Shown here piece by piece: positions 4,260-25,500 of a DNA stretch of 64,000 bases; positions within the stretch are counted from its first letter, which is position 1, and each line of letters starts with the position of its first letter. The stretch is from Podarcis vaucheri (taxonomy: Eukaryota): the NCBI GenBank assembly GCA_965113315.1, contig OZ220375.1; one strand, 5' to 3'. The position numbers were made by a program.

Positions 4260-6357
4260 CCAAGGAAGTTTGTCACTAAGCTCTATGGCTCATTGCAGTC
4301 CTGAGTAAGATGATGAAAAGGGGAAGAGCACTAAAGGGAGAGAAATAAAGCGCAAAGCCAGGGCCAGAGAAAAATCGTGCACTCTAGTGAGGTTGAAGAG
4401 GGGGAGAAATGCAGGCAACCCAGAGAGGAGGGCCAGAGCCCCTTTCCTGCAGTGTCCATCTCTCGGTGACCTCCTCCTCTTTGGAGTATTTGGATTTTCT
4501 GAGCAAGCCAGCCCCCCGCATTCACCCTCCCGCCGGTAAATTATTTAAGCCCCACTCTTGATCCATAGCCACGGGAACAGAAGGCTTCAGGCCTCGGGAT
4601 TCTCATGGACACTCCAGAAAGTGCAAACTTTAGTGCAACACCACCTGTGAGATGCCTCCTGTGTTATACTTGTTCCAATGCATTTGACCGCCTTTGTTTT
4701 CTTTTTCCTTTTTTTTGGCATTACCTTATTTTTTTTCTTTTTCTTCTCTATATATTTTTTAAAAAATAAACGAACATACAAGCTAACCCCAAGCATCCCT
4801 GGTGCGTCTCTATAGGATGGAAGGGATGGGCGAGCGGGGACGTCGGACAGAACCAGGCGAGCCGAAAGGAGTGGGCGCCGGAGACAGGCGCAGTCCAGCA
4901 ATGCTGTTCAGGCTGTGGGACTTCTCATAGCCTGTTGGAAGCGCTGTGGGGAAAGGAGAGAAGTGAAAGGGGTGAACAGGGGAAGAGGAACACAGGTCAA
5001 GTTATGGCCCTGACTCTCTCACAGTAGGGACTCTGGCACTAGCAACCATAGCAGTATGCTAGAGGAGGGAGCTGCCCTCTGCTACACTTCATATGCCTGA
5101 TATACTAGATTCTTGGTCCTCTTAGCTCAGCACTGGCCACATCTGGAGATTTGTTGATGGCTTCATACATTCAATGAAGCTGTACCTGCGCACTGTGGCC
5201 TGGTGCTTCTCTTTCAACCTTCCCTTCATGCCCTGGGATTTGGCAAAGATTTTGCTTTTACCAAAAGTTCCCTATTAGGTCTGAAGCAAGGAACTTTGTC
5301 TTGACGCTGATTAACAAACCAAGATAATTTTGGCTGAGCAAATCCCAGCTTGTTAAATGACATTAAGCCAAATTTATGAAGGTTTATGAAGCCGCTGGCT
5401 GATGTTCAAACATAGCCACTGTCTTACTCTAATTGCCAGCAGTTCTCCAAGGTTTCAAGCCGAGGTCTTTCTCAGACTTGCCACTTGAAAATTAAAGGAA
5501 TTGAATCTGGGGTGTTCTGCACACAGTGCTTGTGCTCTGCCGCTGAACTATAACCCTTCCCCAGTGCTGCTGCTCTAGATTGCTAGAGGGCAGAGTTGTA
5601 GCTATCAGCTCAGCAAGCTTCAGATGCCACATGCGGACAAAATGTCCCAGAAAGCTGTGCAAAGCCGCCAACCCTGGTTTGGGTTCCTTGGGCTGTCAGT
5701 CAGCCTGTGCCTGCCTGCTTCTCATACCACCATTCCTGACCATCTCCCAAATCAATGTTACCTTCTACAACCAGTCTCAGGCTCAACCTTCCATGTTGAA
5801 CTTGGAAACATTATCCCACAATCATAGTTCTAAGCCAAAGCATTCCTTAACTGGAAGCTCTGTGGCCTCAGTCTTGAAGAGCATGAGCTGTTAGCTGAAA
5901 CTGAACTTGCTGAGGGCCAAACTAGACGTGACCTTAAATGGATGCCTCTTTGCATTTAACATTCAGCCTTAAAAAACAAAGCAAAACTCTTAGCATCAGC
6001 TGGAGGGAGCTGATCATGTTTAGAACCACAGCAGCTGTGGAGGGAGGGGGAATCCTGCATCTGAAACTGGTACTGTACCGCACTGTGAAGAAATCTCCCA
6101 TTTGCCCCAGTTTCTTCTTCCTGCAAAGATCAGCTTCAAAGGAACACTTTCTGTCAAGACCACAGCAAAGGAGGAAAAGGTTAAACTTTCCCTCCCTGCT
6201 TGGTAATGATATTGATAATTATTAGCCCCTGCCCCCAGTAGTGGCTGTTTTGCATTTTTGAAACCCAAAAAGACACATTAAGTATCACGGCTATTTTGGC
6301 CGTTAAGAATCTGCCTTGGCAAGCCATTGTTTCTTCTCATCCTATAATAAAGGGATG

Positions 6358-6401
<44 letters not shown>

Positions 6402-22500: not shown

Positions 22501-25500
22501 TCATCACAACTAGTCACTGAAAATAAGGTAGTCTAGTCTTTGCTGCTGTTGTTTCCTTCAAAATGGTAGCTTCAGGAATGTGAAGAGCACCTACAGTCAT
22601 TGTGGGACAGAATGATACAAGTAAGGGAGAAAACATGGAAGGAGATGGGGGACTGACACAAAGCAAGGGCTGACCAAAAAAGCATCTATTTGTTGAGTGG
22701 ATGTGATAATGGAGCTGGGTGTGTGTGCAGGGAACATAACACAGGACTGAGCTGGTAATCTCGGAGGTCATGAAAATCACAGGAAGCAACTGGGAACGCT
22801 GGAAGGGGAGGACCTCCTTCTCCCTCCCCAATTTGAACCCAAATTGCTCAAGATCAATTGTGCTGGCGGGTTGCCAATTGAAAAGAAGCACTAGAGGGCG
22901 CTGTTCTTGGAACGATGGATGCTGTTGCTATGGTAGCAAAGATGGGCAAGTTGAGGCCTTCCAGTTGCTAGGGCATCATCTGCCTCATTTTAATTTGTCA
23001 TGACCTTTTAACCCTCATGACAGGGTTATATTTAAACAAAGTACACATTAGCAGTTGCCTTTTTTTACCTCAGAAATGTGGCAATTTGAGGTTTTGCTGT
23101 GACAAGGGTTATGGAGGTGGTGGTGATGTGGGGAAGGGAGATGTCGTACTTGGACTACTTGTTTAGATGCTCTTGCGAAAGAGGCAGGGCAAAAATTATG
23201 CACATGGATGTACCTTTTCGGATGTTCCCATCAGGTGACTGACCAAAGTCACCTGTGGAGAGGAGAAAGCAGGCTCGGTCACGGTTGTAGCGTTCCCGAC
23301 CGCCAGGTGTGACAGGTGACTTCTCCTCAGGTGACAGGGCCTGGTCTATGGTGGGGCAGTCCTCATTAGCCAATGCTGCATTTGCTGCATCACCATTCTG
23401 CTTGGAATCTGTGAACGGATAAGGGAAAGGGGTGAGATTGAAAAAAAGAGAAGTGACGCAGAAGTAAGAAGAAACTGAGGCTTTTTAATAGTACCTTTGC
23501 ACCTTCCCCAGAATTCCCAGCTCAAAAAACAGACAAAAAACAAAACAACCACCTAGCTACCTTTCTCATCCTGAGATACAACAAATACTTTTTGGGAGTG
23601 TGGATGGAGCAAATTCTTAGGCAAACACAAATTTGCTTGTCTATAATCAAATCAATATTCTTCTAGCAGAAATACTTTACACCATTTAATCGTAATGAAT
23701 GCTGCTGTAAGTTTTTTAAGTACGTACTCTGCAAATCAGATGTACATTACTGAATCGAGCAAGTTGATGCTTTGCATAATTGCCTTAAAATATATAAATG
23801 ATGATCAATGTCCAAAGTGTAGAAATAAAATTTCAAAAAATCTTGCTAGATTTAAACTGTTTTGAAAACTTCGGGTCAGCTAAACCTTTCTGAGAAAATG
23901 AACTTTGGACTTTCCTCCACTTGCTATTATTATATTTGGGCCACATTCAAGTTCAGTTGATGTAAATTGATTACCTATTTCGCTACCCTTTTGTACTCAC
24001 ATTAAGATTTGCTCAAGCAAATGGGTAAAAAGAAGAAACTGTTGTCTCTGTTAACATGTGATTATGAGGATTCTTGTAATATGTGGAGTGTCGCTTGCGA
24101 TAGGAATAGTGATTCCCTCCTTAAGGGAAACTTGGGAGTTGTATTATGTGGAAGAACTAGGAACCTCTTACAAAACATTTCTCAGGTTCTGTGAAGAAAA
24201 TCATAGATTAAATAAATGCGTAGTGCAGAAGTGTTCTGAAAGAAAGCAGCTACAAAATGGCATTATTTATTTTTAGCACAGTTCGTTATTCAAACTGAAA
24301 ACATAGTAAGTAGCTCATACACTTGTTGTGGCTACCAAGTAAAAATGTACAGATAAAGAACATTTGGGTTTGGAGGGGTTTTTTTAGGTTTTCATTCCTA
24401 GAGTTAAAATAGCCTGAAATAATATCCATTTTGTGATGGCCTTTTGATATGTGAATATCAAGAGCTGCTATCCCTTAATAAAAGCATCTTTGTGGTCCTC
24501 ATTTAAGATAATGCTCCATATCAAGCCTCTCAGTTTTGATCAAACAACTTTGAGAAGGGGAGTTCTCCCCCTCTGATAACGACGCCTATCATTTGATCAG
24601 TAGAACTGGTGACGTTATTGTAGGTTAACATAGATAATTATATCTTATCTTGTGAGGCAATTATTCTAGAAAGGGGGACAGGGTCGCCCCTGCAGAGAAC
24701 AGTTTTTCTGAGAGAGAAAGGCTTCATGAAATTGTGGAACAATATTGCAGACAGGAGGGAGCTTTACTGCATACAAAATAAAGGACTGAAAAACTCCCTT
24801 GCTGGCATGGTGCAGCCTTTAATTTCAAAAAAATGACATTAAAAACAAAATTTCAGAAAGGTCATGGGAAACTATTGAAGGTGATGTGTCTTTCATGCTA
24901 GTGATGTCACAGGCAAACTTATCCACCAGGTTCCTATTACACTGCACAATCAAATTTCACACACTACAGACGGAAAAATCACATGTTCCCAATATCACAA
25001 TAATGGTGTTTGAGTGCTGGCAAAATCATGTGCTGAAACAAATAATGTTTGTGGTTTTTTTTAAAAGATTTCTGGAAGAATCCTGTGTAACTAATAATCA
25101 ACACCTGCATGTGTATTGAACACGGGTCATCCACCCCAAACCCAGTCATCTGATAAACTCCTAAATTTAATCCCATTGCTTCTTAGCCTCTTTTCTAGCA
25201 AATAGGATGAACAACTGCTCCTGCTCTTTCTGACATTTTTTAATACTTGGCAATTGTTGCATATACTCTTCTCCCCCCGATCTTTCCCCCTAGGTTAGTG
25301 AATTTCATATTGCTGCCCTCAGGGACTTTTTCCGCACTGATTTGTTGGCTGAGTAAACGTTGCACATCTCCGTGGAATCCCCGCATGTCGCAAAAGATTT
25401 CTAGGAACAGTTTGAAAACCACAGCTCTAGGCTAAACATACTCAGTTCCTTTACCCTTTCCTGGCATGATTTGTCTTCTTGACCCTTTCGCGTCTTTCTA

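What the first reader, a model, noticed from the sequence alone, without database searches (positions are those of the whole stretch)
4810..23408. Combinatorial array of phase-1 alternative C-terminal exons for Kv3.3
After exon 3 (ends RK G|, phase 1), the 18-kb region holds at least five exon-like segments, all entered in phase 1: 15842, 14153, 10491, 8934/8894 and 4943/4931. Predicted proteins are 608 aa (..WKHE), 588 aa (..APTA), 581 aa (ALITA) and 616/620 aa (..PSIL), plus forms with in-frame inserts. Each internal stop lies close to its downstream donor (23, 5 and 42 nt), inside the ~50-nt window that escapes NMD, which suggests selection for productive isoforms. C-terminal splicing is known to control Kv3 targeting and modulation. 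Several of these choices are not ones I recognise from mammals.
Basis: partly seen in the sequence, partly recalled or inferred. Interest (0 to 1): 0.7.

Follow-up and report, generated by a model that had tools for sequence, protein, structure and literature searches.

The report
Kv3.3 gene tail: two alternative endings
The 3' end of a non-human Kv3.3 potassium-channel gene holds the two alternative tail exons already known from fish and rat, and the three extra "exons" proposed look no better than chance.

Summary
The gene is a Kv3 channel on the minus strand. It has an N-terminal inactivation ball and an aspartyl-protease gene upstream, which fits KCNC3.

Only two of the five proposed segments have support beyond chance.
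- **Terminal exon at 4943/4931.** It ends in PSIL and a stop, the ending proven by RT-PCR for zebrafish kcnc3a and aligned there with rat Kcnc3.
- **121-nt exon 14153..14033.** It lies between the two most pyrimidine-rich stretches of the 18.5-kb region and between YCAY clusters. It has a top-1% donor 23 nt after its stop, and its codon usage is in the top 1.4% of a matched null. It is probably the second known variant, the 'WIKP' type.

The segments at 15842, 10491 and 8934/8894 are not distinguishable from decoys. The region holds 150 acceptors at least as good. It holds 13 "stop then donor within 50 nt" configurations in phase 1, against 12 and 10 in the other phases and 10 on the opposite strand.

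The best reading is a two-way switch (cassette with stop versus skipping), not a five-way combinatorial array. No vertebrate sequence collection or RNA data was available, so conservation and usage stay untested.

The parts
47669..48268 (-). Exon 1 coding part (200 codons): N-terminal inactivation ball and T1/BTB domain. ATG at 48268, donor AGG|gtgagt with first intron base 47668.
   Evidence: Pfam BTB_2 E 5.7e-29. Residues 1-29 match the Kv3.4 inactivation peptide 1b4g, E 5.4e-11, and residues 29-200 match Kv3.1 7phh, E 1e-79. Boundaries.
32625..33558 (-). Exon 2 (934 nt): S1-S6 core and proximal tail. Acceptor score 5.0, donor CAG|gtaagg score 7.7, ends in phase 1.
   Evidence: Pfam Ion_trans E 1.2e-47. 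Kv3.1 structures E 1.8e-183. Boundaries.
23214..23408 (-). Exon 3 (195 nt), the proximal C-terminus. It ends ..DGNIRK plus G (phase 1). The donor G|gtacat is weak (rough score 1.6), and there are 8 YCAY in the 150 nt downstream (top 2.8% of the region).
23155..23213 (-). Read-through of the exon 3 donor: 19 further codons (G-T-S-M..HLNK), then a stop. ATTAAA lies at 22994.
   Evidence: ORF 23155..23484.. Codon usage is not coding-like. Inference only.
14154..14300 (-). Long pyrimidine-rich tract in front of the 14153 exon. The 100 nt before the exon are 78% pyrimidine (99.6th percentile). The most pyrimidine-rich 100-nt window of the whole 18.5-kb region (84%) is 14270..14171. There are 10 YCAY in 150 nt (top 0.8%).
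14033..14153 (-). Probable cassette exon 4 (121 nt). The split codon G|GC is followed by 31 codons ..SWYLHDYNANAAPWKHE and stop TAG at 14058-14056. The donor TTG|gtgagt follows 23 nt later.
   Evidence: The donor ranks 10 of 997 and the acceptor ranks 144 of 1371. The exon sits in a CpG-dense patch 14077-14165. Codon usage is 0.645 bits/codon, top 1.4% of a GC-matched stop-free null, with the other frames at -0.01 and -0.14. The downstream flank 14006..13907 is the second most pyrimidine-rich window, and there are 9 YCAY in the 150 nt after the donor.
4810..4943 (-). Coding part of the terminal exon, with two acceptors 12 nt apart. 4943 (cccacag|CG, rough score 6.7, rank 5 of 1371) gives A-LPT-GYEKS... 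4931 (caacag|GC, score 0.8, rank 132) gives GYEKS... Both run to ..RSPIPSIL and stop TAG at 4812-4810.
   Evidence: It is the strongest CpG-dense patch of the region. The 'PSIL' ending is documented for zebrafish kcnc3a and aligned with rat.
3321..3561 (-). First AATAAA hexamers after the PSIL stop (first bases at 3561, 3515, 3326). These are candidate polyadenylation signals of the shared 3' UTR.
   Evidence: Motif scan only.
15711..15842 (-). The acceptor is weak (0.4, rank 157) and the donor CAG|gtgcgg ranks 11. A shorter 48-nt version from acceptor 15758 (score 5.5, rank 13) is better by signals. It overlaps the edge of the CpG-dense, 68% G+C patch 15513-15786.
   Evidence: Codon usage is ordinary: 38% of the null scores as high. 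No Pfam hit.
10449..10491 (-). The acceptor ranks 89 and the donor CAG|gtacgt ranks 6. It lies in CpG patch 10368-10562.
   Evidence: The 11-codon codon-usage score is high (top 1.9%), but a second frame scores nearly the same.
8836..8934 (-). The donor CAG|gtcagc ranks 21. Unsupported. It lies in CpG patch 8843-8968.
   Evidence: Flanks are ordinary. Codon usage is ordinary.

Best explanation
The window carries a non-human vertebrate orthologue of KCNC3 (Kv3.3) on the minus strand. After exon 3, which ends in phase 1, the gene most likely offers a two-way choice of C-terminal tail.

1. **Cassette skipped.** Exon 3 joins the terminal exon at 4943 or 4931. The protein ends ..GYEKS...SPIPSIL (620 or 616 aa).
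2. **Cassette included.** The 121-nt exon 14153..14033 is spliced in. The frame runs 32 more codons to ..NANAAPWKHE (608 aa) and stops 23 nt before the exon's strong donor. The terminal exon then serves as 3' UTR. Because the stop lies less than 50 nt from the last junction, the message should escape nonsense-mediated decay.

Inclusion is probably regulated by factors that bind the exceptional pyrimidine-rich and YCAY-rich flanks, of the PTB or NOVA type.

Shown: the anatomy, the signals and the PSIL ending. Inferred: that both junctions are used, the regulation, and the orthology of the 14153 exon with the fish 'WIKP' exon. The segments at 15842, 10491 and 8934/8894 are most likely chance or low-level cryptic sites lying on CpG-rich patches.
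For: **Gene identity.**
- Pfam BTB_2 and Ion_trans match exons 1 and 2.
- Kv3.1 structures match exon 2 at E 1.8e-183.
- The Kv3.4 ball peptide matches residues 1-29.
- An aspartyl-protease gene lies upstream on the same strand (Pfam Asp). This fits the conserved NAPSA-KCNC3 synteny described in PMC10241522 (passages).

**PSIL exon.**
- It ends exactly in PSIL plus a stop, is entered in phase 1, and its acceptor ranks 5 of 1371.
- It is the top CpG patch of the region.
- PSIL plus a stop occurs only once in the three minus-strand frames of 1..23300.
- Zebrafish kcnc3a has RT-PCR-proven 'PSIL' and 'WIKP' endings aligned with rat Kcnc3. Its two distal exons lie 2.3 and 19.3 kb after exon 3 (Table 1 and Fig. 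4 legend).

**14153 exon.**
- The donor ranks 10 of 997 and lies 23 nt after the stop.
- It is flanked by the first and second most pyrimidine-rich 100-nt windows of the region.
- YCAY counts are 10 upstream (top 0.8%) and 9 downstream (top 1.5%).
- It sits on a CpG patch, and its codon usage is in the top 1.4% and frame-specific.
- 14153 is the only AG between the tract and the coding part.

**Mammalian parallel.** Mouse Kcnc3 splicing just after exon 3 is NOVA-associated, through exon E3a (bioRxiv 10.1101/237347, passages).

**The other three segments.** The null counts show no phase-1 or strand enrichment.
Against: - The 14153 acceptor is weak by my rough matrix (0.6, rank 144 of 1371).
- Its ending WKHE shares only W and K with the published 'WIKP'.
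- I could not see the published alignment: Fig. 4D is not held and supplements are closed. No vertebrate sequence collection was on hand.
- The codon-usage test has little power. Exon 3 left out scores -0.137, and the PSIL exon reaches only the top 10-18%.
- Pfam, PDB and the protein atlas gave nothing for any tail exon, the PSIL exon included.
- The splice matrices rest on recalled frequencies.
Confidence: 0.62

Rival explanations
1. One reading: five or more phase-1 exons (15842, 14153, 10491, 8934/8894, 4943/4931) are all used, alone and in combination. This would give at least five tails plus in-frame inserts, each kept productive by a stop close to its donor.
For: - All the sequence features exist.
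- The donors at 15710, 10448 and 8835 rank 11, 6 and 21 of 997, and the acceptor at 8894 ranks 9 of 1371.
- Each segment lies on one of the six CpG-dense patches of the region.
- Mouse Kcnc3 has at least one extra cassette (E3a) after exon 3.
Against: - The region holds 150 acceptors at least as good as the weakest listed.
- There are 13 stop-plus-donor cases in phase 1, against 12 and 10 in the other phases and 10 on the other strand.
- There are 4 in-frame cassettes, against 1 and 2.
- The flanks of these three segments are ordinary for pyrimidine and YCAY content.
- Unexplained CpG patches occur at a similar rate in introns 1 and 2: 3 in 23.3 kb, against 4 in 18.5 kb.
- Combinations would place the upstream stops more than 55 nt from the last junction.
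- Only two distal variants were found by RT-PCR in zebrafish.
Confidence: 0.12
2. Only the PSIL exon is real, and the gene has a single distal exon in this species. The 14153 segment is a chance open frame inside a pyrimidine-rich, G+C-rich stretch.
For: - The acceptor is weak (rank 144 of 1371).
- Pyrimidine-rich DNA is open by composition; the frame 14056..14454 runs 132 codons.
- There are no database matches.
- Four of the six zebrafish Kv3 genes list only one distal exon (Table 1).
Against: Five independent signals coincide on one 121-nt segment:
- a top-1% donor 23 nt after the stop;
- the two most extreme pyrimidine flanks of the region;
- YCAY clusters on both sides;
- a CpG patch;
- frame-specific codon usage.

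The orthologous fish gene and rat gene have a second distal exon.
Confidence: 0.14
3. The CpG-dense, G+C-rich patches at 15513-15786, 10368-10562, 8843-8968 and 20947-21071 are intronic regulatory elements or parts of another, unannotated transcript. They are not KCNC3 coding exons.
For: - The densest part of patch 15513-15786 lies mostly downstream of the proposed cassette donor 15710.
- The 166-codon open frame there cannot be entered in phase 1 through any acceptor scoring above -3.6.
- Both strands are open there.
- Similar patches occur in introns 1 and 2.
Against: - No RNA family other than one in exon 2 was found in the whole window.
- No protein family was found in 10 open frames of the region.
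Confidence: 0.12

Closest known systems
Zebrafish kcnc3a distal C-terminal splice variants 'WIKP' and 'PSIL', with their rat Kcnc3 counterparts (Mock et al. 2010, PMC2933717; passages, Table 1 and figure legends read)
   Same: The four-part gene plan is the same: N-terminus, S1-S6, proximal C and distal C. There are two alternative distal exons downstream of exon 3, the far one about 18-19 kb away. One ending is identical (PSIL). In the fish the two tails did not change gating.
   Different: The second tail here ends WKHE, not WIKP. Its exon lies 9.1 kb after exon 3, against 2.3 kb for the nearer fish exon. Which fish exon is which is not stated in the passages I saw, and the alignment figure was not available.
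Mouse Kcnc3 alternative exon E3a, associated with NOVA binding (bioRxiv 10.1101/237347; passages read)
   Same: It is a cassette exon directly after exon 3 of the same gene, with a NOVA site downstream and YCAY clusters. Here YCAY clusters flank the 14153 exon and follow the exon 3 donor.
   Different: E3a is described as extending a proline-rich C-terminal domain, that is an in-frame insert. The 14153 exon carries a stop instead. No sequence of E3a was available for comparison.
C-terminal alternative splicing of the other Kv3 genes (Kv3.1a/b, Kv3.2, Kv3.4), as stated in general terms in PMC2933717, PMC12184066, PMC6218699 and PMC7887315 (passages)
   Same: Each mammalian Kv3 gene yields proteins with different C-terminal tails. 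The tails are reported to affect targeting and modulation rather than gating.
   Different: Those papers give no exon-level detail that could be tested here. My memory that the GYEKS...PSIL type of tail is shared with Kv3.2 and Kv3.4 isoforms is recall, not a tool result.

Membership tests
Kv3 (KCNC, Shaw-related) voltage-gated K+ channel gene | T1/BTB tetramerisation domain and a six-segment ion-transport core most similar to Kv3 | tested here: met
   BTB_2 E 5.7e-29 and Ion_trans E 1.2e-47. The best PDB hits are Kv3.1, E 1.8e-183 for exon 2 and about 1e-80 for exon 1, far ahead of Shaker/Kv1 and Kv2 (E about 1e-62 to 1e-66) and Kv4 (E about 1e-48 to 1e-52) for exon 2.
Kv3 (KCNC, Shaw-related) voltage-gated K+ channel gene | Conserved exon plan: N-terminus / S1-S6 / proximal C / distal C | tested here: met
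   Exon boundaries with GT-AG sites were found at 47668, 33558, 32624, 23408 and 23213. The plan is described in the Fig. 4 legend of PMC2933717.
KCNC3 (Kv3.3) orthologue rather than another Kv3 paralogue | N-terminal ball-and-chain extension (Kv3.3 and Kv3.4 only) | tested here: met
   Residues 1-29 match the Kv3.4 inactivation peptide 1b4g, E 5.4e-11. The statement that only Kv3.3 and Kv3.4 have it comes from PMC2933717.
KCNC3 (Kv3.3) orthologue rather than another Kv3 paralogue | NAPSA immediately upstream (conserved synteny) | tested here: inconclusive
   Aspartyl-protease exons lie at 60381..62715 on the same strand (Pfam Asp, E 1e-12 and 2e-9). The synteny is stated in PMC10241522. That the protease is napsin rather than another pepsin-family member was not tested.
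KCNC3 (Kv3.3) orthologue rather than another Kv3 paralogue | Phylogenetic placement with Kv3.3 sequences | not testable with these tools
   No vertebrate protein or genome collection was available. PDB holds only Kv3.1 cores and the Kv3.4 peptide.
'PSIL'-type distal C-terminal exon of Kv3.3 | Tail ending in P-S-I-L directly before the stop, entered from exon 3 | tested here: met
   ..RSPIPSIL* with stop at 4812-4810, and phase-1 acceptors at 4943 and 4931. The ending is named in PMC2933717.
'PSIL'-type distal C-terminal exon of Kv3.3 | Similarity over the whole tail to the fish and rat sequences | not testable with these tools
   Fig. 4D is not held and supplements are closed. PDB and Pfam have no such tail.
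'WIKP'-type distal C-terminal exon of Kv3.3 | Second alternative distal exon downstream of exon 3 in the same gene | tested here: inconclusive
   Exon 14153..14033 lies between exon 3 and the PSIL exon and carries strong exon-definition signals. The order of the two fish exons is not stated in the text I saw.
'WIKP'-type distal C-terminal exon of Kv3.3 | Sequence similarity to the fish and rat tail (ending W-I-K-P in fish) | tested here: inconclusive
   The window tail ends P-W-K-H-E, and only W and K are shared with the four published letters. I recall that rodent tails carry a motif close to the window's NANAA-x-W and end W-I-S-P. That is recall and was not tested. A paper search for the motif found nothing relevant.
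Stop-carrying cassette exon that escapes nonsense-mediated decay | Stop codon less than about 50-55 nt upstream of the last exon-exon junction | tested here: met
   There are 23 nt between stop and donor in the 14153 exon. This holds only if the exon joins the terminal exon directly. The 50-55 nt rule is established knowledge, not a tool result.
Stop-carrying cassette exon that escapes nonsense-mediated decay | The exon is actually included and spliced on to the terminal exon | not testable with these tools
   No RNA data.
NOVA/PTB-type regulated neuronal cassette exon | YCAY clusters or long CU-rich tracts within a few hundred nt of the exon | tested here: met
   There are 10 YCAY in the 150 nt upstream (top 0.8% of windows) and 9 downstream (top 1.5%). 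The flanks are 78-84% pyrimidine. The 400-nt window rule is cited in bioRxiv 10.1101/237347.
NOVA/PTB-type regulated neuronal cassette exon | Binding of the factor and dependence of inclusion on it | not testable with these tools
   This needs CLIP or a knock-down with a minigene.

The most novel reading that the evidence does not exclude
At least one of the three extra segments is a genuine, lineage-specific alternative exon of Kv3.3. The candidates are the 15758/15842..15711 cassette, the 10491..10449 exon and the 8934/8894..8836 exon. If so, this species would have more than the two tail choices known from fish and rat, including in-frame inserts analogous to mouse exon E3a. The CpG-dense patches in the last intron would then mark these exons.
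Probability: 0.2. Interest if true: 0.4.

Novelty: already known. Interest (0 to 1): 0.22.

Why it matters
[quoted passage not shown] Its C-terminal tails are thought to steer targeting and modulation rather than gating (passages).

If the two-way switch holds, the PSIL tail and the W-type tail would both be present in a further vertebrate, not only in fish and rat. That gives a clean gene model for annotation: a cassette with a stop, and a shared 3' UTR.

The larger claim, a five-way combinatorial array, would have been of moderate interest to channel biologists. The sequence does not support it.

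Tried and rejected
- **Pfam on the tail exons and open frames.** I scanned the tail exons and the 244-codon open frame 8540..9271, then ten further open frames of the region. No family was found for any.
- **PDB sequence search.** Exon 3 gave 0 hits. The PSIL exon gave one chance hit to a ribosomal protein, E 1.5. The solved Kv3.1 constructs gave no hit to exon 3 or to the tail exon.
- **Protein atlas.** The 43-aa PSIL exon, used as a positive control, gave no usable hit. 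I did not use the tool on the other segments.
- **Window-internal repeats.** 11 non-self matches were found in 4001..23500, and none overlaps a candidate segment. The six tandem repeats do not either. So the segments are not copies of a repeat seen elsewhere in the window.
- **Motif scan for other Kv3-type tails.** One D-L-C-K hit at 12403 has no AG in front and was rejected.
- **The 166-codon proline-rich frame 15405..15905 as a possible E3a-like insert.** No acceptor with a score above -3.6 gives that frame in phase 1, so it was rejected.
- **Codon-usage test.** It has low power: known exon 3 fails it and the PSIL exon is only borderline. It is used only as a minor point.
- **CpG and G+C patches as an exon detector.** They mark all known exons here, but three unexplained patches lie in introns 1 and 2, so they are not decisive.
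- **Papers not held.** PMC6151494, PMC6726014, PMC6576833 and PMC51567 could not be read. The classical descriptions of Kv3.3a-d tails were therefore not seen.
- **Collections not used.** The phage, plasmid and E. coli collections and the bacterial/archaeal genome collection cannot bear on a vertebrate gene.
- **Unchecked.** Conservation across vertebrates stayed unchecked.

Full report
**Scope and limits.** The window has no N. I do not take it for human. The channel's N-terminus is short, the tail exons differ from what I recall of the human protein, and an intron holds what I recognise from memory as a CR1-type retroelement frame at 31351..31698 (Pfam found no significant family there).

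**The gene.** On the minus strand lie three constitutive exons.
- Exon 1 has its ATG at 48268, 200 codons, and a donor with first intron base 47668. It matches Pfam BTB_2 (E 5.7e-29) and Kv3.1 structures (E about 1e-80). Its first 29 residues match the Kv3.4 N-terminal inactivation peptide 1b4g (E 5.4e-11).
- Exon 2 (33558..32625, 934 nt) matches Ion_trans (E 1.2e-47) and Kv3.1 (E 1.8e-183).
- Exon 3 (23408..23214, 195 nt) encodes DSKQNG...DGNIRK and ends with one G of the next codon.

Upstream on the same strand are aspartyl-protease exons (Pfam Asp). Passages of PMC10241522 state that NAPSA upstream of KCNC3 is conserved synteny across vertebrates. Passages of PMC2933717 state that only Kv3.3 and Kv3.4 carry the N-terminal ball. 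Kv3.3 is therefore the best name. A phylogeny could not be made.

| Entry (phase 1) | Split codon | Reading | Stop | Next donor |
|---|---|---|---|---|
| 15842 | G\|CT | 46 codons | 15702 | in-frame donor CAG\|gtgcgg at 15710 (132-nt cassette) |
| 14153 | G\|GC | 31 codons, ..NANAAPWKHE | 14058-14056 | TTG\|gtgagt, 23 nt after the stop |
| 10491 | G\|GG | 11 codons, ..APTA | 10456-10454 | CAG\|gtacgt, 5 nt after the stop |
| 8934 | G\|CG | open frame | none before the donor | in-frame donor CAG\|gtcagc at 8835 (99-nt cassette) |
| 8894 | G\|CT | LITA | 8880-8878 | the same donor, 42 nt after the stop |
| 4943 / 4931 | G\|CG / G\|GC | ..[10 protein letters not shown]...RSPIPSIL | 4812-4810 | none (terminal exon) |

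With 600 + 934 + 195 nt upstream (576 codons and one base), the lengths 608, 588, 581 and 616/620 aa follow.

**Is it more than chance?** I scored splice sites with simple position-weight matrices. Their frequencies I recalled from the general vertebrate consensus, so they are rough and are not MaxEntScan.
- The known sites score 6.2, 5.0, 7.7 and 4.1. The exon 3 donor G|gtacat scores only 1.6.
- Among 997 GTs, the donors rank 11, 10, 6 and 21.
Of these, 13 show a stop followed by a donor within 50 nt in phase 1.
- The controls are 12 and 10 in phases 0 and 2, and 10 on the opposite strand. Introns 1 and 2 give 2 to 7 per strand, and 50 block shuffles give 5.0 +/- 2.7 with a maximum of 12.
- In-frame cassettes number 4 in phase 1, against 1 and 2 in the other phases.

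There is therefore no phase-1 or strand enrichment. The proximity of stops to donors is not evidence of selection as a class. Equally good unlisted cases exist, for example acceptor 20927 with stop 20760 and donor 20734.

**The PSIL exon is real.**
- Its upstream acceptor is among the five best in the region.
- It is the densest CpG patch of the region: 11 CpG in the best 120-nt window, 12 in the trimmed patch 4771-4943.
- It ends in exactly the four residues that name one of the two RT-PCR-proven zebrafish kcnc3a tails. Mock et al. aligned those tails with rat Kcnc3 variants (PMC2933717, Fig. 4 legend and text).
- PSIL directly followed by a stop occurs once in the three minus-strand frames of 1..23300.
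- From memory, paralogous Kv3 tails begin G-Y-E-K, as the 4931 acceptor would give. The much stronger acceptor is 4943, which adds A-L-P-T. Which is used, or both, cannot be told from sequence.

**The 14153 exon is probably real.**
- The 100 nt before it are 78% pyrimidine (99.6th percentile).
- The most pyrimidine-rich 100-nt window of the entire region (84%, 14270..14171) lies just upstream. The second most (74%, 14006..13907) lies just after its donor.
- YCAY motifs number 10 in the 150 nt upstream (top 0.8% of windows) and 9 in the 150 nt downstream (top 1.5%). The other four candidates are ordinary on both measures.
- The donor is in the top 1% and sits 23 nt after the stop.
- The exon is a CpG-dense patch.
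- Its codon usage, scored against the three known exons, is 0.645 bits per codon. That is the top 1.4% of GC-matched stop-free segments, with the other two frames near zero.
- 14153 is the only AG between the tract and the coding part. The next AG upstream (exon start 14272) reads into a stop.
- The fish and rat genes have a second distal exon. I recall that rodent tails carry a motif like the window's NANAA-x-W and end W-I-S-P, which would match the fish W-I-K-P. This is recall. A paper search for the motif found nothing relevant, and the published alignment figure is not held.

**Against it.** The acceptor itself is weak by my matrix (rank 144). The codon test lacks power: exon 3 left out scores -0.137 and the PSIL exon reaches only the top 10-18%. 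No database match exists for any tail.

**Mechanism proposed.** This is a binary switch.
- Skipping the 121-nt cassette gives the PSIL tail.
- Including it gives the WKHE tail and turns the terminal exon into 3' UTR. Because 121 is not a multiple of three and the stop lies 23 nt from the junction, the included form is productive and should escape nonsense-mediated decay. This holds only if the cassette joins the terminal exon directly.

The weak exon 3 donor, its downstream YCAY cluster (8 per 150 nt, top 2.8%) and the flanks of the cassette suggest regulation by NOVA- or PTB-type factors. A NOVA-associated cassette (E3a) directly after exon 3 is reported for mouse Kcnc3 (bioRxiv 10.1101/237347, passages). 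The regulation is inference.

A third ending is possible by reading through the exon 3 donor: 19 codons to a stop at 23155-23157, with ATTAAA at 22994. From memory, the human reference tail also continues with G-T at this point. Its codon usage is not coding-like.

**The other three segments.** Each lies on a CpG-dense patch. Several points count against them.
- Unexplained patches occur at a similar rate in introns 1 and 2 (3 in 23.3 kb, against 4 in 18.5 kb).
- G+C-rich segments also occur in introns 1 and 2.
- The flanks and codon usage of these segments are ordinary.
- They match nothing in Pfam, and they do not overlap window-internal repeats.
- At 15.4-15.9 kb the densest CpG part lies mostly beyond the proposed donor.
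By my rough estimate such a pair is not unexpected by chance.

I rate these as chance or cryptic sites, with about a one-in-five chance that at least one is used.

**Comparison with what is known, and verdict.** Alternative C-terminal tails are a stated property of every mammalian Kv3 gene (passages). For Kv3.3 in particular, two distal exons are documented in fish and rat, and an extra cassette in mouse. What is supported here is the same two-exon arrangement in another vertebrate, so it is already known in kind. Interest is low. RNA data or a multi-species alignment would settle the matter quickly.

Noticed in passing
window 32815..32928 (-), inside exon 2: Rfam family RF00485 (K_chan_RES, potassium channel RNA editing signal) matches full length at 103.7 bits (gathering score 51) over the pore-to-S6 coding region. 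Most predicted pairs are kept. The match may largely reflect conserved coding sequence. Whether this Kv3 message is edited there is unknown.
   Followed up: partly
window 23155..23213 (-): Reading through the weak exon 3 donor (G|gtacat, rough score 1.6) gives 19 more codons and a stop, with ATTAAA at 22994. Its codon usage is not coding-like.
   Followed up: partly
Open frames run on both strands (20758..21078 -, 20838..21137 +). Its nature is unknown.
   Followed up: no
window 15405..15905 (-): A 166-codon open frame in a 63% G+C, CpG-rich stretch holds proline-rich motifs (LPPLP twice). It has no Pfam match and cannot be entered in phase 1 from exon 3. The opposite strand is also open (15561..15857).
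   Followed up: yes
window 60381..62715 (-) and CpG patches 58033..58259, 63131..63443: Exons of a eukaryotic aspartyl protease (Pfam Asp) lie upstream of the channel gene on the same strand. This fits the NAPSA-KCNC3 synteny described in PMC10241522. The gene model was not worked out.
   Followed up: partly
window 31351..31698 (+), intron 2: A 115-codon open frame that I recognise from memory as the C-terminal part of a CR1-type LINE reverse-transcriptase protein. Pfam gave no significant match. Related short repeats lie at 31855..32065, 51425..51501, 60867..60934 and 12571..12648.
   Followed up: partly
window 47630..48890: A CpG island of about 1.26 kb (122 CpG, 67% G+C) covers exon 1 and the presumed promoter. 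Strongly skewed, low-complexity pyrimidine-rich sequence follows at 48.5-50.5 kb on the plus strand.
   Followed up: no
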